Below are positions 5,067 through 44,935 of a stretch of 64,000 nt of DNA, in pieces. The stretch spans positions 102,566 through 166,565 of the forward strand of contig JACRJU010000013.1 in NCBI GenBank assembly GCA_016219925.1, given 5' to 3'. A program made the position numbers and the translations under genes. This stretch comes from Candidatus Uhrbacteria bacterium (GTDB taxonomy: Bacteria; Patescibacteriota; Patescibacteriia; UBA9934; GWF2-40-263). Numbering within the stretch: the stretch's first letter is position 1; each line of letters begins with the position of its first letter. Under the pieces are notes generated by a model, which was given only the letters and a program-made list of their open reading frames with translations, had not been told where the DNA came from and made no database searches.

Positions 5067-5085
5067 GGTGTGGATAAACAGGTCT

Positions 5086-5139
5086 TTGACGCACAAGATA
5101 TAGTGGTCTATCATAAAAGGTGACCACAATATGTAGTGG
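5086..5139 (+). promoter_or_regulatory. sigma70-type promoter (TTGACG-17-TATCAT) overlapped by two tandem NrdR-box-like 16-bp palindromes
   Basis: TTGACG at 5086-5091, a 17-nt spacer, TATCAT at 5109-5114. Box 1 GCACAAGATATAGTGG (5091-5106) and box 2 CCACAATATGTAGTGG (5124-5139) each match the published NrdR consensus acaCwAtATaTwGtgt at 13/16 positions. They lie 33 bp apart, upstream of a ribonucleotide reductase gene. Confidence 0.5.
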
Positions 5140-5380
5140 GGAAAGGCGTCGTGGCCAGAGACCCTTCCAGGAGTGAATAGGAATGATCCCAACGGGATTG
5201 TTTTTAGTCTGCTTGTGTTGCTTACAAAATGGGCGAGCTATCGGCTGACGCTGCGGTCGTCACCTCACCGTACATCGGTGTACGGCTCGGTGCCGTCCTC
5301 GCGTTGTAGCGATATCTCATCCCATTTTGAAACCAACACGTCTGGTTTTGAGCTGATGTCTGCGTGCTGTCAATCTTCTT

Positions 5381-5449
5381 GCGGTTTGAGCTATGTCGGA
5401 GGGAACAGCGACGAGGAGTCCGCTGGCCCGGAGACATAGCATAAACCGC
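5381..5449 (+). repeat. structured hairpin element copy 1 (17-bp closing stem with 2 mismatches, 36-nt conserved core) inside the nrdJ 5' leader
   Basis: gcggtttgagctatgtc / gacatagcataaaccgc form the closing stem around core GGAGGGAACAGCGACGAGGAGTCCGCTGGCCCGGAG. The core matches copy 2 at 32/36 positions. Confidence 0.55.
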
Positions 5450-5495
5450 AAAACAATACCGCCAACAGTTACTTTACTCCTCTGTTACTTCCTTT

Positions 5496-8400
5496 ATGTC
5501 CGATCAACCGATCTCTAAAGTTCAAGTTTCCTCCTTGGACACGACCAATGTGGCCGACGCGGTTTGGCAATTTATGACCTCCGTAAAATCGTTACGGAAG
5601 CGCGATGGATCAGAACAAGATTTTGATGCTCGCAAACTCACACACTCCATTCGAGCCGCGCTTTTGGCCGCCGGCATGAAGCCTTCGCTTTGCGAGAAGA
5701 TCACCTCGCAAGTCATTTCTCGTCTTACACATCAGTTTGATGGCCACAGTGTGCCGACATTTGCCGATGTGCGCGAAGCCGTTGAGGTGACGCTCATCGA
5801 TAACAATCTGATTCATGTTGCAAAGAAGTACTTGTCTTTTCGCGGATCGGAATCTCGCGCGGCGCAAACCGAGCGTTATGGAAAGGGGATTACTGTTGAT
5901 CGTTTTTTCACCAAAGAAGGCGTTCATCCTTATGACGAGATCGAATGGGAAAAACGTGACGCGGTTATTTCAGGATCCAAAGGGGAGGTTGTATTTGAAC
6001 AGAAAGGAGTTGAAGTTCCAAAATCGTGGACGCAGACTGCGACGAATATCGTTGTTTCAAAATATTTTTTTGGGACGATTGGCAAAGATGATCGCGAATA
6101 TTCGGTAAAACAGTTGGTTCACCGCGTCGCATCCACCATCGCCAACTGGGGTCGCAAGGACGGCTATTTCCAAACCGGAGAAGATGCGCAACATTTCGAA
6201 GACGAGCTTCATCATATTTTGGTCAATCAAATGGCCGCTTTTAACTCACCGGTCTGGTTTAACGTCGGGACGACTCGTCCCCCACAGTGTAGCGCCTGCT
6301 TTATCAATTCTGTTGAAGATGACATGCGTTCTATTTTGAATCTGTGCGTGACGGAAGGTACGTTGTTTAAGGGAGGCTCTGGGACAGGATCCAATCTCTC
6401 TAAACTCCGCTCCAAGCACGAATACTTAAGCGGAAGCAATGGCAAAGCCTCCGGTCCGATTTCGTTTATGAAGGGTCTTGATGCTTTTGCAGGAGTGATT
6501 AAAAGCGGAGGCAAAACGCGTCGAGCGGCCAAAATGGTGATTTTGGATATTACGCATCCCGATATTGACGATTTCATCATGTGTAAGGTGGAGGAAGAAA
6601 AGAAAGCCTGGGCGCTGATGGACGCCGGATACGATGGTTCGATTGACGGTCCGGCTTATGCCTCCATCTATTTTCAAAACGCCAACAACTCGGTGCGCGT
6701 GACGGATGATTTTATGCGCGCGTACGAGACCGACGACTCGTGGGCGACTCGCGCCGTCACAACCGGCGAACCGGTGAAAACCTGGAAAGCGCGCGAGCTC
6801 ATGGATATGATGGCCGATGCGGCATGGCAGTGCGGCGATCCGGGCATTCAATATGATACGACGATCAACGACTGGCACACCTGTTCGAACACGGATCGCA
6901 TTTACGCGTCCAATCCGTGCAGTGAGTACATGTTCCTCAATGACAGCGCTTGCAACCTCGCTTCGCTTAACCTCATGAAGTTTCGCAAGCTCGTCGGGAG
7001 CGAAATGGTGTTTGATGTGGAGTCTTTCAAAAAAGCCAATGAGGTCATCATCACCGCCATGGAAATTATCGTCGGCAATTCGGTCTATCCAACCCCGGCG
7101 ATCGAACAGAACAGCTATGACTACCGCCCACTGGGCATCGGCTACGCCAACCTCGGTGCTTTGCTTATGAGCCGCGGGCTTCCGTATGATTCGGATGCCG
7201 GTCGCAATCTCGCGGCGGCCATCACGTCTTTGCAAAGTGGTCACTGTTATTATCAATCGGCTAAGATTGCGGAAAAAGTCGGACCGTTTGCTGGCTACAA
7301 AGCCAATGAAGATCCTTGTTTGCGTGTGATGCGCAAACATCGCGATGCCTCTTATGAAGTGGCCACCGATGGAGTGCCGGCGGATTTGCTTAGCGCGTCT
7401 CGCGTGGCTTGGGACAATGTCGTTGAGCAGGCGAGCCAGTATGGTTTGCGCAACGCACAAATTAGCGTGATCGCTCCGACAGGAACCATTTCTTTCCTCA
7501 TGGATTGTGATACGACTGGCGTCGAACCGGATATCGCACTTGTGAAATACAAATGGTTGGTTGGGGGTGGGATGTTCAAGATTATCAACAACACAGTTCC
7601 TGAAGTTCTGACGCGTTTGGGATACACCCAAACGGAGCGCGATGATATTTTGGCCTTCATTGAAAAAAACGACACGATTGAAGGAGCTCCGCATGTGAAG
7701 ATCGAACATTTGCCGGTGTTTGATTGTGCGTTCAAGGCGGCCAATGGCACGCGTACGATTCAGTACATGGGTCATGTACGCATGATGGCCGCGGTTCAAC
7801 CGTTTGTTTCCGGCGCCATTTCCAAAACCGTAAACATGCCCCATGAAGCGACCGCGCAAGATATTGCCGACGTTTATGTGCAAGGATGGAAGCTCGGGCT
7901 CAAAGCGATCGCCATTTATCGTGATGGCTCCAAGCGCCAGCAGGCGTTGACGACATCCAAAGAAAGCGACGCGAAGAAACAAAATGAATCTTCTATCGTT
8001 GCGAAAAGCGAACCGAAGGCGAGTGGCGAGGCCATCTCAACGGTTACGACCCAGACTGATCAACGTCTCCGCCGACACCGCCTTTCCGATGAACGACGCG
8101 CCATCACGCACAAGTTTAAGGTCGGGCCGCATGAAGGATATATCACCGTCGGTCTCTATGATGATGGAGCGCCGGGAGAAATTTTTGTCACCATGTCCAA
8201 AGAGGGATCCGTCATTAGCGGACTGATGGATAGTTTTGCAACAGCGATTTCTATCGGCTTGCAATACGGTGTTCCCCTGGAAGTCTTGGTCAATAAATTC
8301 GTTCACATGCGATTTGAACCTTCCGGATATACCAACAACCCCCAAATCCGCATTGCCAAATCCATCACGGATTACATTTTCCGTTGGCTTGCCATCAAGT

Positions 8401-8669
8401 TTTTGCCGCGGGAGTCGCAGATGACTTTGGGCATTAACACGGTGGACGAATCGCTCGACCAGCCTGTGAAAACCGCGGACGAAAAAGTGGAATTCGCGAC
8501 TCCGACCGTTCCACAACCGAAATTATTTGAACGGACACAGAGTGATCACATCCAAACTTTCGATAATCAGTCAGATGCGCCAGCCTGCGACACGTGCGGT
8601 TCGATCATGGTGCGCAATGCCGCCTGTTATAAATGTTTGAATTGTGGGGGAACGAGCGGGTGTAGCTAA
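5496..8669 (+). CDS. nrdJ: adenosylcobalamin-dependent ribonucleoside-diphosphate reductase (class II) with N-terminal ATP-cone and C-terminal Cys4 zinc ribbon
   Basis: 1057 aa. ATP-cone-like N-terminus. NSPVWFNVGT and SNPCSEYMF active-site blocks of class I/II RNR. C-terminal CDTCGS...CYKCLNCGG zinc ribbon. Confidence 0.85.
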   Translation: MSDQPISKVQVSSLDTTNVADAVWQFMTSVKSLRKRDGSEQDFDARKLTHSIRAALLAAGMKPSLCEKITSQVISRLTHQFDGHSVPTFADVREAVEVTLIDNNLIHVAKKYLSFRGSESRAAQTERYGKGITVDRFFTKEGVHPYDEIEWEKRDAVISGSKGEVVFEQKGVEVPKSWTQTATNIVVSKYFFGTIGKDDREYSVKQLVHRVASTIANWGRKDGYFQTGEDAQHFEDELHHILVNQMAAFNSPVWFNVGTTRPPQCSACFINSVEDDMRSILNLCVTEGTLFKGGSGTGSNLSKLRSKHEYLSGSNGKASGPISFMKGLDAFAGVIKSGGKTRRAAKMVILDITHPDIDDFIMCKVEEEKKAWALMDAGYDGSIDGPAYASIYFQNANNSVRVTDDFMRAYETDDSWATRAVTTGEPVKTWKARELMDMMADAAWQCGDPGIQYDTTINDWHTCSNTDRIYASNPCSEYMFLNDSACNLASLNLMKFRKLVGSEMVFDVESFKKANEVIITAMEIIVGNSVYPTPAIEQNSYDYRPLGIGYANLGALLMSRGLPYDSDAGRNLAAAITSLQSGHCYYQSAKIAEKVGPFAGYKANEDPCLRVMRKHRDASYEVATDGVPADLLSASRVAWDNVVEQASQYGLRNAQISVIAPTGTISFLMDCDTTGVEPDIALVKYKWLVGGGMFKIINNTVPEVLTRLGYTQTERDDILAFIEKNDTIEGAPHVKIEHLPVFDCAFKAANGTRTIQYMGHVRMMAAVQPFVSGAISKTVNMPHEATAQDIADVYVQGWKLGLKAIAIYRDGSKRQQALTTSKESDAKKQNESSIVAKSEPKASGEAISTVTTQTDQRLRRHRLSDERRAITHKFKVGPHEGYITVGLYDDGAPGEIFVTMSKEGSVISGLMDSFATAISIGLQYGVPLEVLVNKFVHMRFEPSGYTNNPQIRIAKSITDYIFRWLAIKFLPRESQMTLGINTVDESLDQPVKTADEKVEFATPTVPQPKLFERTQSDHIQTFDNQSDAPACDTCGSIMVRNAACYKCLNCGGTSGCS

Positions 8670-8756
8670 GGAATCACAAGGATCACGTTTCGTTCGAGCC
8701 CCTTCAGTTGATGTAACCTCCTTCAGGATGACAGGCAAAGATTTCTTCGTACGATC

Positions 8757-8833
8757 GCGATGACGATCTATCCTGCCGGAGGGAACAACGGCGACGAGTC
8801 CGTTGGCCCGGAGGCAGGATAGATCGTCATCGC
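8757..8833 (+). repeat. structured hairpin element copy 2 (perfect 21-bp closing stem, 35-nt conserved core) immediately 3' of nrdJ
   Basis: gcgatgacgatctatcctgcc ... ggcaggatagatcgtcatcgc are perfect reverse complements. The core GGAGGGAACAACGGCGACGAGTCCGTTGGCCCGGAG matches copy 1. Confidence 0.55.
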
Positions 8834-8869
8834 ACTGACAAAACACAACTTTCGTAATTCACAGCTATA

Positions 8870-8898
8870 AAGAGGGCTCATCATGTCCCTCTTTTTTG
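8870..8898 (+). terminator. rho-independent terminator after nrdJ
   Basis: aagaggg-ctcatcatgt-ccctct stem-loop followed by TTTTT. Confidence 0.55.
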
Positions 8899-8925
8899 TT
8901 TTTGTGATAAAATGAGCTCGAACCT

Positions 8926-23098: not shown

Positions 23099-24799
23099 TT
23101 GCAGTTGCTTTATAATCGGGGCGTGCGCACGCAGGAAGACATAGATGTCTTTCTGTGTCCGGATTGGAGCCGGGATATTTTTCCGTCTGGAGCGTTCATA
23201 CACATGGACGAAGCGGTCGCTCGCGTGATGCGAGCTCTTGAGAGCGGGGAAGTCATCACGGTTCATGGCGATTATGATGCGGATGGCGTGTGTGGATCGA
23301 CGGTATTGATGACAACGCTTCGCGACATCTGTCGTGCGCTTCATTTTGATGAACACAAGACCACCTCCTACATCCCGCATCGAGAGAAGGAAGGGTATGG
23401 ATTGTCCATTGCGACCATGGAGCATTTGTCTGAACACGAAAAGTCGTCACTTGTGATCACAGTTGATTGTGGCATCAGCAACAAGCCAGCCATCGATCGT
23501 GGTCGCGAACTCGGTGTGGATACGATCGTGTGCGATCATCACACCATGCCAGAACAGCTTCCCGAGCAAGCGATTTTGATTCACCCGCTCGTGCCGGGCG
23601 AGACCTATCCGAATAAACAGTTGTGTGGCACGGGTGTTGCGTTCAAGCTTGCCTGTGCGTTATATGATGCGGCGCGCGCGCGAGGCGCGCAGATTGTTGA
23701 GGGGCATGAAAAATGGTTGCTTGATTTGGTGGCGATCGCAACCGTTACGGACATCATGCCTTTGCTTGGAGAAAATCGCGCGCTTGAGTTGTTCGGTCTT
23801 TGTGTGCTCAATAAGACGCGTCGCGTGGGTTTGCGAAAGTTAATTGAAGTCGCTGGAGCAAAGTGGGGAGAACTCGACACGGTGGCGATTGGCTTTGTGA
23901 TTGGTCCGCGTCTCAATGCCGCGGGGCGGATGAATCATGCCAGCGAAGCGCTTGAACTGTTGATCGAAGAGGATGAAATACATGCAACTGAGATGGCTTT
24001 GCGTCTGCATGAGACGAATAGTGAGCGCCAAAAAGTTTCAAAAAAGATGTATGAGGAAGCACGCGTCATCCTAAGCGAAGTGAAGGATCCCAAGTCCTCA
24101 AATCTATTGATCGTGGTCTCCGATTCCTGGTCTCCCGGCCTTGTGGGCCTTGTTGCCAGCCGGCTTGTGAATGAATACAACCGTCCGGTGTATGTGATCG
24201 GTAAATATGAGGATGTGTATATTGGATCCGGCCGTACGGTCGGAACGTTTGATGTGACCGCGGCTCTGCGTTCAGCTTCTGCTTATTTGGAAAAATTTGG
24301 TGGACATCCGCAGGCGTGTGGGTTTTCTATTCGAGGTGAGGAGAATTTGGCGCGCGCGATCGAGGCCTTTCAGGTTTTTGCTGACGCTTTGATCACGCCT
24401 GACGATTTGGTTTCAACTCTTTCTTGCGAAGCGGAGCTTGTTCTTGAAGAGGTGAATTGGGAATTGTTTGATGCGATTGAGCAGATGCGTCCATTTGGAC
24501 GAGGAAATGAGGAGCCACTCTTCTGTGCGCGTGGGCTCTCGGTTGTTTCGTTCACGACCGTTGGAAGTGATGGCAAACATTTGAAACTGATGGTTCGTTC
24601 GCCCGGCGGCCGCATACTCCCCGCGATTGCTTTTGGATTCGGTCATCTGGCCGAGTCGCTAAACTTATTGCCCGAGCCTGTCGAGGGCTGCACGAGCAAT
24701 AAGATTGATCTCGCCTTCTACATCCGCGTCAACGAGTGGAACGGCAACCGCGAGTTGCAGTTGTTTGTGGAGGATATTCGGCTCGTTGTGCTATCATAA
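23099..24799 (+). CDS. recJ: single-stranded-DNA-specific exonuclease RecJ (DHH/DHHA1)
   Basis: GDYDADGV, DCGIS and DHH family motifs, then DHHA1 (GGHPQACGF) and a C-terminal OB-like domain. The ORF-track start at 23099 is TTG. The reading frame is open back to 22985 and encodes a conserved RecJ N-terminal region (HPVLLQLLYNRGV) with no canonical start codon, so the true start is uncertain. Confidence 0.75.
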   Translation: MQLLYNRGVRTQEDIDVFLCPDWSRDIFPSGAFIHMDEAVARVMRALESGEVITVHGDYDADGVCGSTVLMTTLRDICRALHFDEHKTTSYIPHREKEGYGLSIATMEHLSEHEKSSLVITVDCGISNKPAIDRGRELGVDTIVCDHHTMPEQLPEQAILIHPLVPGETYPNKQLCGTGVAFKLACALYDAARARGAQIVEGHEKWLLDLVAIATVTDIMPLLGENRALELFGLCVLNKTRRVGLRKLIEVAGAKWGELDTVAIGFVIGPRLNAAGRMNHASEALELLIEEDEIHATEMALRLHETNSERQKVSKKMYEEARVILSEVKDPKSSNLLIVVSDSWSPGLVGLVASRLVNEYNRPVYVIGKYEDVYIGSGRTVGTFDVTAALRSASAYLEKFGGHPQACGFSIRGEENLARAIEAFQVFADALITPDDLVSTLSCEAELVLEEVNWELFDAIEQMRPFGRGNEEPLFCARGLSVVSFTTVGSDGKHLKLMVRSPGGRILPAIAFGFGHLAESLNLLPEPVEGCTSNKIDLAFYIRVNEWNGNRELQLFVEDIRLVVLS

Positions 24800-32601: not shown

Positions 32602-33705
32602 ATGGCTTTGTTCGGTAAAGCAAAAAAAGGAGGAACGCTTGGCGTTGACATCGGCGCAAACAGCATCAAGCTCGTTGAACTTGGCAGCGAAAGGGGACGC
32701 GCCAAACTGCTCACCTATGGCTATGGAGAGCTGCCATTTGGCAATCAGGGCGGACTTCTCATGGACAATCCCAAAGCCGCGGGCGAATTGCTGGCGGAAA
32801 TTTGTAAAGCCTCGGGATGTCAATCCACCATTACGATGGCCGCGTTGCCGACGTCGAATGTGTTTACAACGATTTTATCGCTTCCCGCTACGAAAGATCC
32901 CAAGCAAGTCAAATCGCTCATTGATGCCGAGGTGGAAAAAATGTCGCCACTTCCGATTTCCGAGATGATTACCTACTCGACGTTTTTAGATGGGGAGGGC
33001 AAGAAGGCGGAGAAATCTCAAAAAGCTGAAAGGGCAGAGAAAGCGGATAAGTATGTGCGCGTGTTGGTCACCGGTGCTGCAAAGACGCTTGTGCAGAAGT
33101 ATATTGAGATATTCCGTACAGCCAAACTACAACTGCAAGCCTTGGATACAGAATCTTTTGCGTTGATTCGTTCTCTCATTGGCAAAGACCGCAGTGCGAT
33201 CATGCTTATTGACATGGGGGCCAAACGGACAAACATCACTGTTGTGGAAAAGGGGATTCCGTTTGTAACGCGCAGTGTGAATATTGGCGGGGATACGCTT
33301 ACGAGCCGCATTCAATCCAGCTTGCATCTCCCCGCGGACAAAGCCGAGCAGATGAAGCGTGATTTTTCCGATGCGGCCGCGGAGCCGTCTGATCTTCCCG
33401 GCGGTTTGTCGCCGGTGCTTGAGCCGGTTATTCAACCGCTGGTGAATGAAATCAAGTATTCCTTTGAACTGTATGCAAGCATGGAATTGACGCAAATCAA
33501 AAAGGTGGAAAAGATTATCTTGACTGGCGGTTCTGCTCACTTGCCTCGCGTGCCAGAATATCTTTCTGAAACCTTGAATTTGAACGTGTATCGCGGCAAT
33601 CCGTGGGCGCGCGTCGTCTATCCGCAGGATTTGTCGATCGTGTTGGAGGAGATCGGGCCGCGCATGAGCGTCGCGATCGGGCTTGCGATGCGAGATATGG
33701 AATAA
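32602..33705 (+). CDS. pilM: type IV pilus assembly protein PilM (actin-like ATPase fold)
   Basis: LGVDIGANSIKLVEL N-terminus, ILTGGSAHLP near the C-terminus, and typical PilM length. Confidence 0.8.
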   Translation: MALFGKAKKGGTLGVDIGANSIKLVELGSERGRAKLLTYGYGELPFGNQGGLLMDNPKAAGELLAEICKASGCQSTITMAALPTSNVFTTILSLPATKDPKQVKSLIDAEVEKMSPLPISEMITYSTFLDGEGKKAEKSQKAERAEKADKYVRVLVTGAAKTLVQKYIEIFRTAKLQLQALDTESFALIRSLIGKDRSAIMLIDMGAKRTNITVVEKGIPFVTRSVNIGGDTLTSRIQSSLHLPADKAEQMKRDFSDAAAEPSDLPGGLSPVLEPVIQPLVNEIKYSFELYASMELTQIKKVEKIILTGGSAHLPRVPEYLSETLNLNVYRGNPWARVVYPQDLSIVLEEIGPRMSVAIGLAMRDME

Positions 33706-33718
33706 CGAAATCCTAAGA

Positions 33719-33965
33719 TCATTTGAACCTGTCCTCTCAAAACACGCGGTCGGCCATCGTTGATTTTAGACTGTCGATTGTACCCGCCGCTCGTGTCTCG
33801 GGATCGCGAAGCCTTATTGCCTGAGCCTGTCGAAGGCAATGGCGATCCCGGAGCGGAGCGAGTGCAGTGAACAAAATTTTGTTTGTTCACTACCGAGCGA
33901 GCGAACGGGATATGACCTTTGGTCATATCCCTACGACACGGTTTTGATCGGACAGGTTCAAATGA
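33719..33965. repeat. 247-bp element bounded by perfect 16-bp inverted repeats (tcatttgaacctgtcc / ggacaggttcaaatga) containing three nested hairpins; MITE-like or structured leader RNA
   Basis: Left inverted repeat 33719-33734, right inverted repeat 33950-33965. Internal hairpins at 33799-33850, 33867-33890 (9-bp perfect stem) and 33907-33931 (11-bp perfect stem). Confidence 0.5.
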
Positions 33966-34011
33966 CTTGATCACTATCTTCTTATTTCCTACTCCTTCTC
34001 CTCTCCCCCCT

Positions 34012-34521
34012 ATGTCCAAATCTTCACGCGGTTTTACTCTTTTGGAAATTTTGGTCGTGATCGCGATCATCGCGCTCATTGGCGTTTTTGCGGCCGTTGC
34101 CGTGAACGCCGCCCGATCCAAACAACGCGATGCCACACGGCTTGCGAACATCCGTCAGTTGCAAAGCGCCCTTGAAGATCACTTCAATGAAGGGAACACG
34201 TATCCCGCGGGCGAACTTCTGCCGCTGGGCGATCCGACAACGAGTGCGTGTCTGGGTCTCAATGGATTCCTCGGAGATTGTTCTTCCGAGAGCGCGGTAT
34301 TTTTGCGCATCGTGCCGGGGACTTATGCTGACGGTCTTAAAGGCGATGTGACCTGCGGTGATCCCGCGCGTAAGGCCTTTTGCTACACCCAACGAGCTGG
34401 AGGAGACAAATACGTGATTCATTTCGAACTGGAAAACGCTCTGCCATCTATCGGTCTTCAAAAGGGGGTGAACTGTGCCATTGCCGATGGGATGCAGGCA
34501 GGGGTGTGTCCAGAAGAATAG
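34012..34521 (+). CDS. type IV pilin (prepilin with N-terminal methylation motif)
   Basis: MSKSSRGFTLLEILVVIAIIALIG has a G-F cleavage site with E at +5. C-terminal cysteine pairs are present. Confidence 0.8.
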   Translation: MSKSSRGFTLLEILVVIAIIALIGVFAAVAVNAARSKQRDATRLANIRQLQSALEDHFNEGNTYPAGELLPLGDPTTSACLGLNGFLGDCSSESAVFLRIVPGTYADGLKGDVTCGDPARKAFCYTQRAGGDKYVIHFELENALPSIGLQKGVNCAIADGMQAGVCPEE

Positions 34522-34526
34522 GGGAT

Positions 34527-34550
34527 AAAACAGGGTGCGAGCCCTGTTTT
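34527..34550 (+). terminator. hairpin terminator after the pilin gene
   Basis: aaaacaggg-tgcgag-ccctgtttt, a 9-bp perfect stem ending in a T-run. Confidence 0.5.
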
Positions 34551-34569
34551 ATGATAGAATAGGGGCGCT

Positions 34570-37328
<2,759 letters not shown>

Positions 37329-44808: not shown

Positions 44809-44896
44809 GGAGAGGTCGCATAGAGGTCGATTGCGCGCGCTTGGAAAGCGCGTATACCGCAAGGTATCGAGGGTTCGAATCCCTCCCTCTCCGCCA
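44809..44896 (+). tRNA. tRNA-Ser (anticodon GGA), class II with long variable arm, CCA encoded
   Basis: GGAGAGGTCGCATAGAGGTCGATTGCGCGCGCTTGGAAAGCGCGTATACCGCAAGGTATCGAGGGTTCGAATCCCTCCCTCTCCGCCA. The acceptor stem is 7 bp, the anticodon loop is TTGGAAA, the variable arm is 16 nt and the T-loop is TTCGAAT. Confidence 0.85.
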
Positions 44897-44935
44897 GCTA
44901 AAAAGGACTCATGTTTTGAGTCCTTTTTAGCTGGC
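44893..44935 (+). terminator. long perfect hairpin terminator overlapping the tRNA-Ser 3' end
   Basis: gccagctaaaaaggactca-tgtt-ttgagtcctttttagctggc, a 19-bp perfect inverted repeat. Confidence 0.6.

What the first reader, a model, noticed from the sequence alone, without database searches (positions are those of the whole stretch)
33719..33965. 247-bp inverted-repeat-bounded, multi-hairpin element between pilM and the pilin gene
Perfect 16-bp terminal inverted repeats, tcatttgaacctgtcc (33719-33734) and ggacaggttcaaatga (33950-33965), enclose three consecutive hairpins. These are an extended imperfect hairpin at 33799-33850, a 9-bp perfect stem at 33867-33890 and an 11-bp perfect stem at 33907-33931. 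No ORF is present. The architecture fits a MITE-like insertion, although no clear target-site duplication is seen. It equally fits a highly structured leader or processing RNA that could decouple pilin expression from pilM. The pilin gene downstream has no Shine-Dalgarno and a pyrimidine-rich leader, so the element may be part of its 5' UTR.
Basis: seen in the sequence. Interest (0 to 1): 0.65.

Follow-up and report, generated by a model that had tools for sequence, protein, structure and literature searches.

The report
Palindromic insertion between pilM and pilin
The 247-bp hairpin-rich block is real, but it is a lineage-specific piece of repeat-derived "junk-like" DNA inserted between two pilus genes of a Candidatus Uhrbacteria genome, not a conserved regulatory RNA. 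Its one conserved part is a 27-base hairpin unit that is scattered through many environmental genomes and has also inserted in-frame into this genome's recJ gene.

Summary
A 25-nt inverted repeat (16 nt perfect) closes a domain of four hairpins. It folds far better than shuffles, z about -9.7 as RNA on either strand and -9.3 as DNA.

It is not a conserved leader. In 43 of 55 related Uhrbacteria loci pilM abuts the next gene (1-30 nt), and the closest complete relatives have 8-20 nt pilM-pilin spacers. The roughly 290 extra bases are therefore an insertion.

Only one piece has relatives: the tip of hairpin 2, TTATTGCCT-GAGCCTGTCGA-AGGCAAT (33814-33840). This 27-nt unit has an invariant loop and a covarying 4-bp stem. 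It occurs in more than 120 metagenome contigs, 72% of copies intergenic, with no strand bias, as solo copies, head-to-head doublets, tandem arrays and TIR-bounded composites. A second copy is a clean 27-nt in-frame insertion in this genome's recJ, absent from about 45 orthologues. Hairpins 3 and 4 are GTAG-tagged, REP-like palindromes, and sister genomes carry a REP-associated transposase at this locus.

As a whole the 247-bp block is single-copy in everything searched and has no target-site duplication.

Best reading: an accreted REP/BIME/MITE-like palindromic cluster. The 27-nt unit has no Rfam match and no literature hit.

The parts
33719..33743 (.). Left arm of the long-range inverted repeat (16 nt perfect, 25 nt at 92%). 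In the fold the closing helix starts at 33714.
33941..33965 (.). Right arm of the long-range inverted repeat. In the fold the closing helix ends at 33969.
33746..33790 (.). Hairpin 1: imperfect, about 15 bp, no relatives found.
33798..33851 (.). Hairpin 2. Lower stem is CGGGATCGC/GCGATCCCG and the upper part is the conserved 27-nt unit. Removing the unit leaves a 9-bp hairpin with a 7-nt loop, as if the unit had been inserted into a hairpin loop (inference).
33814..33840 (+). 27-nt hairpin unit TTATTGCCT-GAGCCTGTCGA-AGGCAAT, the only part of the element with relatives elsewhere. It has an invariant 11-nt loop, a covarying 4-bp stem and a conserved 5' TTATT.
33851..33861 (+). GAGCGGAGCGA. Together with 33895-33904 it forms a direct repeat flanking hairpin 3. 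It resembles the long-loop variants of the unit (GAGCGGAGCGAAGTCGA). This is a lead only.
33866..33893 (-). Hairpin 3 (10-bp perfect stem). Read on the minus strand it starts GTAG: GTAGTGAACAAACAAAATTTTGTTCACT, a GTAG-tagged REP-like palindrome.
33895..33904 (+). GAGCGAGCGA, the second copy of the direct repeat flanking hairpin 3.
33907..33934 (-). Hairpin 4 (11-bp perfect stem). Read on the minus strand: GTAGGGATATGACCAAAGGTCATATCCC, a GTAG-tagged REP-like palindrome.
33966..34011 (+). Unpaired, pyrimidine-rich tract between the element and the pilin ATG (34012). It is also absent from relatives, so it is part of the extra roughly 290 nt.
24665..24691 (+). Second copy of the 27-nt unit (TTATTGCCC-GAGCCTGTCGA-GGGCTGC), inserted in-frame in recJ. 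It adds 9 residues (LPEPVEGCT) that about 45 RecJ orthologues lack. The closing pair differs from the pilM-pilin copy by a compensatory change (T-A to C-G).
32602..33705 (+). pilM (context gene upstream; Pfam PilM_2/FtsA).
34012..34521 (+). Type IV pilin-like gene (context gene downstream; N_methyl), followed by a terminator-like hairpin at 34525-34552.

Best explanation
The block is a lineage-specific, non-coding cluster of palindromic repeat units that accumulated at the pilM-pilin junction of this Candidatus Uhrbacteria genome. It is comparable to a REP cluster (BIME) or a composite MITE, and it is not a conserved RNA gene or leader.

Its modules are:
1. A copy of a widespread 27-nt hairpin unit (TTATT-NCCY-GAGCYTGTCGA-RGGN'), apparently sitting in the loop of an older 9-bp hairpin.
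2. Two GTAG-tagged REP-like palindromes (hairpins 3 and 4).
3. An imperfect hairpin (hairpin 1).
4. A 25-nt long-range inverted repeat that closes the whole.

Shown:
- The sequence is an insertion relative to relatives.
- The 27-nt unit is a dispersed, structurally constrained repeat that has inserted as a discrete 27-nt piece elsewhere in the same genome.

Inferred:
- The units spread at the DNA level through recognition of the hairpin, with its invariant loop, on single-stranded DNA by a transposase that has not been identified. A REP-associated HUH tyrosine transposase is the model.
- The cluster grew by successive insertions rather than moving as a 247-bp whole.
- Because no separate promoter is detectable, the block is probably co-transcribed with pilM and pilin. 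It would then fold into a very stable four-hairpin domain that could incidentally act as a barrier or processing site separating pilM from pilin mRNA, as REP and Correia elements do in other bacteria.
For: **Insertion**
- The pilM 3' end and the pilin 5' end align across 7 loci, with about 290 extra nt only in the window.
- Spacers are 20, 16, 8 and 8 nt in L181, L182, L003 and L007.
- 43 of 55 loci have junctions of 1-30 nt.

**Only 33813-33838 has any relative in 1.1 Mb of related and other fetched loci**.

**The unit family**
The pattern holds about 39 bits.
- Logo.
- Stem covariation: pair 7-25 is CG 59 / GC 48 / UA 22 with 6 unpaired; pair 10-22 is UA 120 / CG 15. 0 of 500 shuffles reach the observed score.
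- 122 of 169 copies are intergenic although about 87% of the sequence is coding.
- No strand bias relative to genes: 14 same against 21 opposite for solo copies, p = 0.31.
- Head-to-head doublets outnumber the opposite arrangement 54 to 8. Composites with outer inverted repeats also occur.
- A 120-nt composite with a 16-bp TIR lies at 4 or more sites of one sample, with 5-6-bp duplicated flanks at 2-3 of them.
- Some copies carry a further hairpin nested inside the loop.

**Mobility in this genome**
- recJ carries a clean 27-nt, 9-residue insertion that is the unit. It is absent from about 45 orthologues.

**REP context**
- Hairpins 3 and 4 are the only intergenic GTAG-tagged palindromes among 62 hairpins in the window, and both are on the same strand.
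- Sister genomes L003 and L006 carry a REP-associated tyrosine transposase two genes downstream of pilM (between the prepilin peptidase gene and ligA). It scores 89.8 bits against NCBIfam NF047646 (cut-off 80) and also hits Pfam Y1_Tnp. It is flanked by GTAG-tagged REPs.

**Other lineages**
- Unrelated, highly structured insertions occupy the same junction in L006, L011, L024, L042, L048 and L004.
- Similar spacers occur at 18 of 408 other junctions, including two around nrdJ in this window.

**Not a known RNA**
- No Rfam match at E up to 10 for the region.
- No Rfam family over the unit in 20 unit-rich loci.
Against: - The 247-bp block, its terminal repeat and hairpins 1, 3 and 4 have no second copy anywhere searched. 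A repeat origin is therefore demonstrated for one module only.
- No transposase of any kind was linked to the 27-nt unit. No protein family recurs next to it.
- The sister-genome RAYT is flanked by a different REP, and its closest relatives are in Ignavibacteriota and Bacteroidota rather than Patescibacteria.
- No RAYT is present in the window.
- Only about 15% of unit copies carry a TAC (GTA on the other strand) tag.
- The GTAG tags on hairpins 3 and 4 are modest evidence, roughly 5e-4 by chance.
- The long closing helix, and the analogous closing helix in L004, would also fit selection for an RNA structure.
- Transcription was not measured.
Confidence: 0.62

Rival explanations
1. Unitary MITE. 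The whole 247-bp block, bounded by its 25-nt terminal inverted repeats, is one non-autonomous transposon. It is mobilised by a DDE transposase encoded elsewhere in the genome and is present in further copies outside the 64-kb window.
For: - Long terminal inverted repeats, a size of 247 bp and no coding capacity.
- Empty sites in relatives.
- Composites of the same family with outer TIRs, 5-6-bp duplicated flanks and multiple copies exist in another sample.
- The outer repeat of L101 (GAGATCATTTCAAAA) resembles the window's AAGATCATTTGAAC.
- Logan contigs of the source sample break inside the block, at 33849 and 33871. A repeat could cause that.
Against: - No target-site duplication.
- No second copy in the window. 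A 16-mer search allowing 3 mismatches finds only the two arms plus one coding match consistent with chance.
- No copy in 1.1 Mb of related and other fetched loci.
- The 23-base terminal pattern has 0 matches in the metagenome collection.
- No transposase with matching ends was seen.
Confidence: 0.15
2. Functional structured RNA. The block is part of the pilM-pilin transcript and was retained because its compact multi-hairpin fold decouples pilin from pilM expression, as a processing site, exonuclease barrier or terminator/attenuator. Any palindromic sequence can fill this role, which would explain unrelated structured inserts at the same junction in other lineages.
For: - Extreme fold stability.
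- No sigma-70-like promoter in the spacer, so co-transcription is likely.
- Structured inserts with z of -6 or lower sit at the pilM 3' junction in 6 of 55 loci, plus L004 and L008. That is 11-14%, against 18 of 408 (4%) of other junctions.
- L004 also has a long-range closing helix around nested hairpins.
- The pilin gene has its own terminator-like hairpin.
Against: - The majority state, and the state in the closest relatives, is a tight junction with no structure.
- There are no homologous sequences, so no covariation test of the whole fold is possible.
- Both strands fold equally well, and so does DNA.
- The conserved module is strand-neutral and occurs in coding genes.
- No T-run terminator.
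- The enrichment at this junction is only about three-fold.
Confidence: 0.15
3. Independent small RNA gene, or a member of a known RNA family such as 6S, SRP, a retron msr/msd or a ribozyme, that happens to lie between pilM and pilin.
For: - A closed multi-helix fold of about 250 nt.
- An RNase H-domain gene lies upstream of pilM.
Against: - No Rfam family at E up to 10.
- No promoter or terminator consensus.
- No conservation in any relative.
- No reverse transcriptase nearby. The RNase H gene is conserved in relatives that lack the block.
Confidence: 0.04
4. Decayed remnant of the roughly 125-residue receiver-domain-like gene that lies between pilM and pilin in most Uhrbacteria.
For: - Most relatives have a gene of about 380 nt at exactly this position.
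- The window spacer is of similar length, 306 nt.
Against: - tblastn of four such proteins against the spacer gives only noise, best E = 0.48 in a 340-nt database.
- The clade closest to the window lacks the gene and has tight junctions.
- A palindromic architecture is not expected from gene decay.
Confidence: 0.02

Closest known systems
REP / BIME / REPIN elements with their RAYT (REP-associated tyrosine transposase)
   Same: - Short (20-40 nt) imperfect palindromes.
- Mostly intergenic, in either orientation.
- Occur solo, as inverted doublets that form one long hairpin, and in mosaic clusters.
- Hairpins 3 and 4 carry the GTAG tag that defines one REP superfamily (title and abstract of PMC3733652, seen).
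- A bona fide RAYT with flanking GTAG-REPs sits in the sister genomes at this locus.
   Different: - The 27-nt unit has a short 4-bp covarying stem and a large invariant loop, rather than a conserved G+C-rich stem.
- Its constant flank is TTATT, not GTAG.
- It keeps the same sequence across contigs of 34-65% G+C, whereas REP families are usually species-specific (own knowledge).
- About a quarter of its copies lie inside ORFs.
- No cognate RAYT was found.
- Copy density in this genome is low, 2 in 64 kb.
Correia elements (NEMIS) of Neisseria and similar composite MITEs (ERIC, BOX, RUP)
   Same: - 100-250-bp non-coding blocks with terminal inverted repeats of about 25 nt.
- Inserted next to genes and co-transcribed.
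- Fold into long hairpins that can be cut by RNase III and change mRNA stability (own knowledge).
- BOX elements are modular mosaics, as this block is.
   Different: - Correia elements are present in hundreds of near-identical copies with a TA duplication.
- This block is single-copy in all data searched and has no duplication.
Rickettsia palindromic elements (RPE)
   Same: Palindromic repeats that insert in-frame into protein-coding genes and are tolerated as extra peptide segments (own knowledge). Here the 27-nt unit adds 9 residues to RecJ and occurs inside long ORFs, including aminoacyl-tRNA synthetase genes.
   Different: - RPEs are 100-150 bp and restricted to Rickettsia.
- This unit is 27 nt and is found in many environmental genomes.

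Membership tests
MITE (miniature inverted-repeat transposable element), for the 247-bp block as a whole | Terminal inverted repeats | tested here: met
   25 nt at 92%, 16 nt perfect.
MITE (miniature inverted-repeat transposable element), for the 247-bp block as a whole | Short (about 50-500 bp) and non-coding | tested here: met
   247 bp. Only mechanical ORFs overlap it, and there is no similarity to the receiver-like gene of relatives.
MITE (miniature inverted-repeat transposable element), for the 247-bp block as a whole | Target-site duplication flanking the repeats | tested here: not met
   The flanks ...CCTAAGA and CTTGATC... are not direct repeats. They extend the inverted repeat instead.
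MITE (miniature inverted-repeat transposable element), for the 247-bp block as a whole | Multiple copies in the genome | tested here: not met
   Single copy in the 64-kb window. None in 1.1 Mb of related and other fetched loci. 0 matches to the terminal pattern in metagenome contigs. The rest of this genome was not available, so the test is incomplete.
MITE (miniature inverted-repeat transposable element), for the 247-bp block as a whole | Presence/absence polymorphism (empty sites) | tested here: met
   Orthologous junctions of 8-20 nt in L181, L182, L003 and L007. These are other species (PilM about 72-75% identical), not strains.
REP (repetitive extragenic palindrome), for hairpins 3 and 4 | 20-40-nt imperfect palindrome with a conserved GTAG (or CGTC) tag at one end | tested here: met
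   GTAGTGAACAAA...TTTGTTCACT and GTAGGGATATGACC...GGTCATATCCC on the minus strand. Among 62 hairpins in the window, one other, inside a CDS, has the tag.
REP (repetitive extragenic palindrome), for hairpins 3 and 4 | Many copies of the same sequence family in the genome | tested here: not met
   No second copy of either hairpin in the window or in any fetched locus. Genome-wide copy number is not testable here.
REP (repetitive extragenic palindrome), for hairpins 3 and 4 | Cognate RAYT gene in the genome, usually flanked by its REPs | tested here: inconclusive
   None in the window. Present in sister genomes L003 and L006, but flanked by a different REP, GTAGCCCACGGCTTTAGCCGTG.
REP-like dispersed palindromic repeat, for the 27-nt GAGCYTGTCGA unit | Dispersed, mostly intergenic, in both orientations | tested here: met
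   More than 120 contigs. 122 of 169 copies are intergenic. No strand bias.
REP-like dispersed palindromic repeat, for the 27-nt GAGCYTGTCGA unit | Palindrome maintained by selection (compensatory changes) | tested here: met
   Four stem pairs covary. 0 of 500 shuffles reach the observed covariation score, and slid controls are far lower. Caveat: two of the four pairs were fixed by the search pattern.
REP-like dispersed palindromic repeat, for the 27-nt GAGCYTGTCGA unit | Evidence of insertion as a discrete unit | tested here: met
   A 27-nt in-frame insertion in recJ relative to about 45 orthologues.
REP-like dispersed palindromic repeat, for the 27-nt GAGCYTGTCGA unit | Linked transposase | tested here: not met
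   No recurrent neighbouring protein family in 120 loci. Only 3 RAYT-like genes in all loci, none flanked by the unit.
Conserved cis-regulatory leader RNA of the pilin gene | Conserved at the orthologous position upstream of the regulated gene | tested here: not met
   Absent from the junction in the closest relatives and in most of 55 loci.
Conserved cis-regulatory leader RNA of the pilin gene | Strand-specific occurrence and covariation of the whole fold | tested here: inconclusive
   There are no homologues of the whole fold to test. The one conserved module is strand-neutral. Both strands fold equally well.
Any Rfam family | Covariance-model match | tested here: not met
   No match at E up to 10 over 33500-34200. 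None at gathering score in the window apart from 3 tRNAs. None over the unit in 20 unit-rich loci.

The most novel reading that the evidence does not exclude
The 27-nt hairpin TTATT-NCCY-GAGCYTGTCGA-RGGN' may be an undescribed, self-contained mobile micro-element, among the smallest known. It would be spread across Patescibacteria and possibly other phyla.

Its invariant loop can be drawn as tandem G.A/A.G pairs, a G-C pair and a bulged T. It tolerates whole hairpins inserted between GAGC and GTCGA. On this reading the loop is the recognition determinant for an unidentified single-strand DNA enzyme.

The unit would insert preferentially into hairpin loops and, when the length is a multiple of three, in-frame into essential genes such as recJ and aminoacyl-tRNA synthetase genes. 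Larger TIR-bounded composites, such as the 247-bp block here, would be built from it.
Probability: 0.3. Interest if true: 0.7.

Novelty: new variant of a known kind. Interest (0 to 1): 0.5.

Why it matters
For the pil locus itself the result is deflationary. The block is not a conserved pilin regulator, and the missing Shine-Dalgarno is a clade-wide trait unrelated to it.

The useful by-product is a sharply defined repeat family:
- It is a 27-nt hairpin with an invariant loop and a covarying stem.
- It is abundant in groundwater-type metagenomes.
- It has no Rfam match at any threshold tried, and no hit in the searchable literature.
- It has demonstrably inserted in-frame into a housekeeping gene.

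Patescibacteria genomes are small and tightly packed, so a repeat that still spreads in them, even into coding sequence, bears on three things:
- How such genomes tolerate selfish DNA.
- Mis-assembly and contig breaks in MAGs. Three independent contigs end within 150 nt of pilM here.
- Gene-calling artefacts, since the unit translates to recurrent peptides such as PSTSSGN, LRQAQG, LPELVEG and SLSLSKG.

Tried and rejected
- **Known RNA family.** Rfam at gathering score over the whole window, and at E up to 10 over the region, gave nothing.
- **Copies of the whole block.** Tried 16-mer searches with mismatches, blastn-short and nhmmer in the window and the loci, and an exact 23-base terminal pattern in metagenome contigs. 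None found.
- **Relic of the receiver-like gene.** This gene occupies the position in most relatives. tblastn gave only noise.
- **DNA-uptake sequence linked to the competence pilus.** Considered because the unit forms inverted pairs next to a pilin gene. Rejected on density (2 copies in 64 kb, against roughly 1 per kb for known uptake sequences, own knowledge) and because the unit is not pilus-associated elsewhere.
- **Hammerhead or other small ribozyme, or a K-turn.** Considered for CUGAGC...CGAAGG. The hammerhead core (CUGANGA...GAAA with helix II) and the 3-nt K-turn bulge are absent. Inspection only.
- **TIGR or CRISPR-like array.** Considered for the tandem copies in L064 and L158. The inter-unit segments are themselves repeated, so these are plain tandem duplications.
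- **Intrinsic terminator role for the unit.** There is no excess between convergent genes and no orientation preference.
- **RAYT as the mobiliser of the unit.** RAYT genes exist in L003, L006 and L128, but they are flanked by another REP, and their relatives are mostly outside Patescibacteria.
- **Phage origin.** The unit pattern has 0 matches in IMG/VR.
- **In-frame insertion in a LeuRS gene, checked against solved structures.** Inconclusive, because the region is variable in homologues.
- **Literature.** Five searches covering the sequence, the encoded peptides, and REP/RAYT/MITE together with CPR terms found no description.
Full report
**1. The observation**

- The window comes from a Candidatus Uhrbacteria (Patescibacteria) MAG. 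Its PilM is 100% identical to an NCBI protein of that name on a 282-kb contig.
- Between pilM (32602-33705) and a type IV pilin-like gene (34012-34521) lies a 306-nt spacer.
The inverted repeat extends to 25 nt at 92% (33719-33743 / 33941-33965).
- In the minimum-free-energy fold the arms form a 20-bp closing helix, 33714-33734 / 33950-33969. Two further long-range helices lie inside it. Together they enclose four hairpins:
  - H1: 33746-33790.
  - H2: 33798-33851.
  - H3: 33862-33894, with a 10-bp perfect core at 33866-33891.
  - H4: 33907-33931, 11 bp perfect.
- The fold energy is -123.2 kcal/mol, against -76.8 +/- 4.8 for dinucleotide shuffles. That gives z = -9.7 on the + strand and -9.9 on the - strand. 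With DNA parameters z = -9.3.
- About a dozen distinct hairpins (11) with perfect stems of 9 bp or more exist in the whole window, and two are here.

**2. Not a known RNA, and not repeated as a whole**

- Rfam finds only three tRNAs in the window and nothing at E up to 10 in 33500-34200.
- A simple scan finds no sigma-70-type promoter and no hairpin-plus-T-run terminator in 33400-34700.
- The terminal 16-mer, allowing 3 mismatches, matches only the two arms plus one coding site consistent with chance. blastn-short finds no other copy of any part.
- A 23-base pattern covering both arms has no match in the metagenome collection.

**3. Relatives show an insertion**

- A PilM profile retrieved 58 loci from GTDB species representatives, nearly all labelled Uhrbacteria or Patescibacteria. 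Three more came from the closest PilM proteins, 74-75% identical. No closer relative exists in the protein collection: the best non-self hits are 75% for PilM and 79% for the pilin.
- The usual gene order is pilM, a gene for a receiver-like protein of about 125 residues, then the pilin gene. In the clade nearest the window the order is pilM, pilin, prepilin peptidase, ligA.
- In 43 of 55 loci pilM abuts the next gene, at 1-30 nt.
- The closest complete relatives have pilM-pilin spacers of 20 nt (L181), 16 nt (L182) and 8 nt (L003, L007).
- In a 7-locus alignment the pilM 3' end and the pilin 5' end align, and only the window carries about 290 extra bases.
- The spacer is not a relic of the receiver-like gene.
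- None of these pilin genes has a Shine-Dalgarno sequence. That feature is therefore unrelated to the block.

**4. One module is a member of a large repeat family**

- The only part of the block with similarity anywhere is 33813-33838.
- It is the tip of H2: TTATTGCCT-GAGCCTGTCGA-AGGCAAT (33814-33840).
- The same hairpin occurs at these places:
  - Twice, in inverted orientation, in the 101-nt pilM-pilin spacer of L006.
  - Once after pilM in L008.
  - Twice, inverted, just after the recJ stop codon in L024.
  - Once in L049.
  - Once more in the window, at 24665-24691.
Only a handful of matches would be expected by chance. It matched nothing in IMG/VR.
- Across 138 distinct copies:
  - The 11-nt loop is invariant apart from one Y position.
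  - A 5' TTATT is conserved and mostly unpaired.
  - The 4-bp stem covaries. The outer pair is CG 59, GC 48, UA 22, with 6 unpaired. The closing pair is UA 120, CG 15, with 2 unpaired.
  - 0 of 500 shuffles reach the observed covariation score, and slid controls are far lower.
  - Caveat: the two middle pairs were fixed by the search pattern, and the loop was the search key.
- Loop variants keep GAGC and GTCGA and vary in between: YT, NNA, or an entire inserted hairpin.
- Host contigs span 34-65% G+C and carry ordinary housekeeping genes.
- Their taxonomy was not established. Five unit-bearing genomes are labelled Uhrbacteria or Patescibacteria.

**5. The unit behaves as mobile or selfish DNA, not as a strand-specific RNA signal**

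- 122 of 169 copies are intergenic, although about 87% of the sequence is coding by a crude gene call.
- Orientation relative to neighbouring genes is random: 14 same against 21 opposite for solo copies between co-directional genes, p = 0.31. There is no excess between convergent genes.
- Copies occur solo, as tandem arrays, and as head-to-head doublets (54, against 8 of the opposite arrangement). The doublets pair into one long hairpin and are often enclosed by a further outer inverted repeat.
- One 120-nt composite has a perfect 16-bp TIR. It lies at four or more sites on three contigs of one sample, with duplicated 5-6-bp flanks (ATTATT, TTGAC, ATATAA) at two or three of them.
- About a fifth of copies cap a perfect helix of 6-8 bp or more with variable sequence, against 0.5-2% in controls.
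- About a quarter of copies lie inside ORFs, many of them long, including aminoacyl-tRNA synthetase genes.
- The decisive case is in the window itself. RecJ carries nine extra residues (LPEPVEGCT), encoded by exactly the unit. All of about 45 RecJ orthologues in the fetched loci lack them, and the DNA alignment shows a clean 27-nt gap.
- The two window copies differ by a compensatory change in the closing pair (T-A against C-G).

**6. The other modules**

- Read on the minus strand, H3 and H4 begin with GTAG directly at the palindrome. This is the tag that defines one REP superfamily (title and abstract of PMC3733652).
- Among 62 hairpins in the window only one other, inside a coding region, has this tag. 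The evidence is modest, roughly 5e-4 by chance.
- Sister genomes L003 and L006 encode a REP-associated tyrosine transposase between the prepilin peptidase gene and ligA. It scores 89.8 bits against NCBIfam NF047646 (cut-off 80) and also hits Pfam Y1_Tnp. It is flanked by GTAG-tagged REPs (GTAGCCCACGGCTTTAGCCGTG) in both orientations.
- REP/RAYT systems therefore do operate in this clade and at this locus.
- Against a direct link: the RAYT is not flanked by the 27-nt unit, its nearest relatives are mostly in Ignavibacteriota and Bacteroidota, and the window has none.
- Removing the 27-nt unit from H2 leaves a 9-bp hairpin with a 7-nt loop. This suggests insertion into a hairpin loop (inference).
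- GAGCGGAGCGA and GAGCGAGCGA flank H3 as direct repeats and resemble long-loop variants of the unit. This is a lead only.

**7. Context in other lineages**

- Unrelated, highly structured inserts (z of -6 or lower) occupy the pilM 3' junction in L006, L011, L024, L042 and L048. L004 has one with z = -16.8, and L008 has structured sequence there too. Both of those contigs end inside the insert.
- That is 11-14% of loci. By comparison, 18 of 408 (4%) of other junctions carry such inserts.
- This is a mild hot spot, or mild selection for structure. The data cannot separate the two.
- The window holds two more spacers with the same architecture, an outer inverted repeat enclosing nested hairpins. 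They lie on either side of nrdJ.

**8. Verdict**

- The block is best read as an accreted cluster of palindromic repeat units, BIME-like or composite-MITE-like, inserted at the pilM-pilin junction in this lineage (confidence about 0.6).
- A unitary MITE with further copies elsewhere in the genome (0.15) cannot be excluded without the rest of the genome.
- A recruited RNA-level barrier or processing role (0.15) cannot be excluded without transcript data.
- The 27-nt unit has no Rfam match at any threshold tried and did not turn up in five literature searches. I have seen peptides like those it encodes in hypothetical proteins before, but that is recollection only and I could not tie them to a published name.
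- The unit is a new family of a known kind of element. It is the most interesting result of the follow-up.

Noticed in passing
window 24665-24691 (inside recJ, 23099-24799): A 27-nt in-frame insertion of the hairpin unit adds LPEPVEGCT to RecJ. About 45 orthologues lack it.
   Followed up: yes
window 5067-5495 and 8670-8925 (flanking the class II ribonucleotide reductase gene, 5496-8669): Two more highly structured spacers (z about -6.5 and -5.9) share the architecture of an outer inverted repeat enclosing nested hairpins. One includes a 21-bp perfect hairpin at 8757-8833. Neither matches Rfam, and neither is similar to the pilM-pilin block.
   Followed up: partly
window 44893-44935: A 19-bp perfect-stem hairpin begins at the last base of a tRNA gene (44809-44893). 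It is the longest perfect hairpin in the window. Its function was not examined.
   Followed up: no
L006 5598-6071 and L003 5767-6240: A REP-associated tyrosine transposase (RAYT) gene lies between the prepilin peptidase gene and ligA. It is flanked by GTAG-tagged REPs (GTAGCCCACGGCTTTAGCCGTG). Its closest relatives are in Ignavibacteriota and Bacteroidota, which suggests horizontal acquisition.
   Followed up: partly
L010-L034 and others, immediately downstream of pilM: Most Uhrbacteria carry a gene of about 125 residues, resembling a stand-alone response-regulator receiver domain (my reading of its sequence; no domain search was run), between pilM and the pilin gene. It is lost in the clade that contains the window, and shortened in L005.
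   Followed up: partly
L048 4123-4334: The pilM-pilin spacer consists of three tandem copies of a hairpin of about 55 nt (GGCTCCCGGTCTT-GTCTGAGAGTCCATA-AAGACCGGGAGCC). This is a different repeat family at the same junction.
   Followed up: no
L001 (ends at window 33849), L183 (starts at window 33871), L008, L180, L004: Independent assemblies break within 30-365 nt downstream of pilM. In the source sample's Logan assembly the two contigs stop on either side of 33850-33870. This suggests population heterogeneity or repeat-induced graph breaks at this junction.
   Followed up: partly
L128 about 2240-2290; also L083, L090, L075, L132: Other short palindromic repeat families co-occur with the unit (GTCATTGCGAGCGAAGCGAAGCAATC-type and GGATTCCCGCCTGCGCGGGAATGA-type). 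In L128 the 27-nt unit is nested inside the loop of one of them.
   Followed up: no
L148 170-393: A group I intron (Rfam RF00028, 84.8 bits) lies on a unit-bearing metagenome contig.
   Followed up: no
window 34525-34552: A terminator-like 11-bp hairpin (ATAAAACAGGG...CCCTGTTTTAT) lies directly after the pilin stop codon and before the prepilin peptidase gene. This is consistent with high, separately terminated pilin expression.
   Followed up: no
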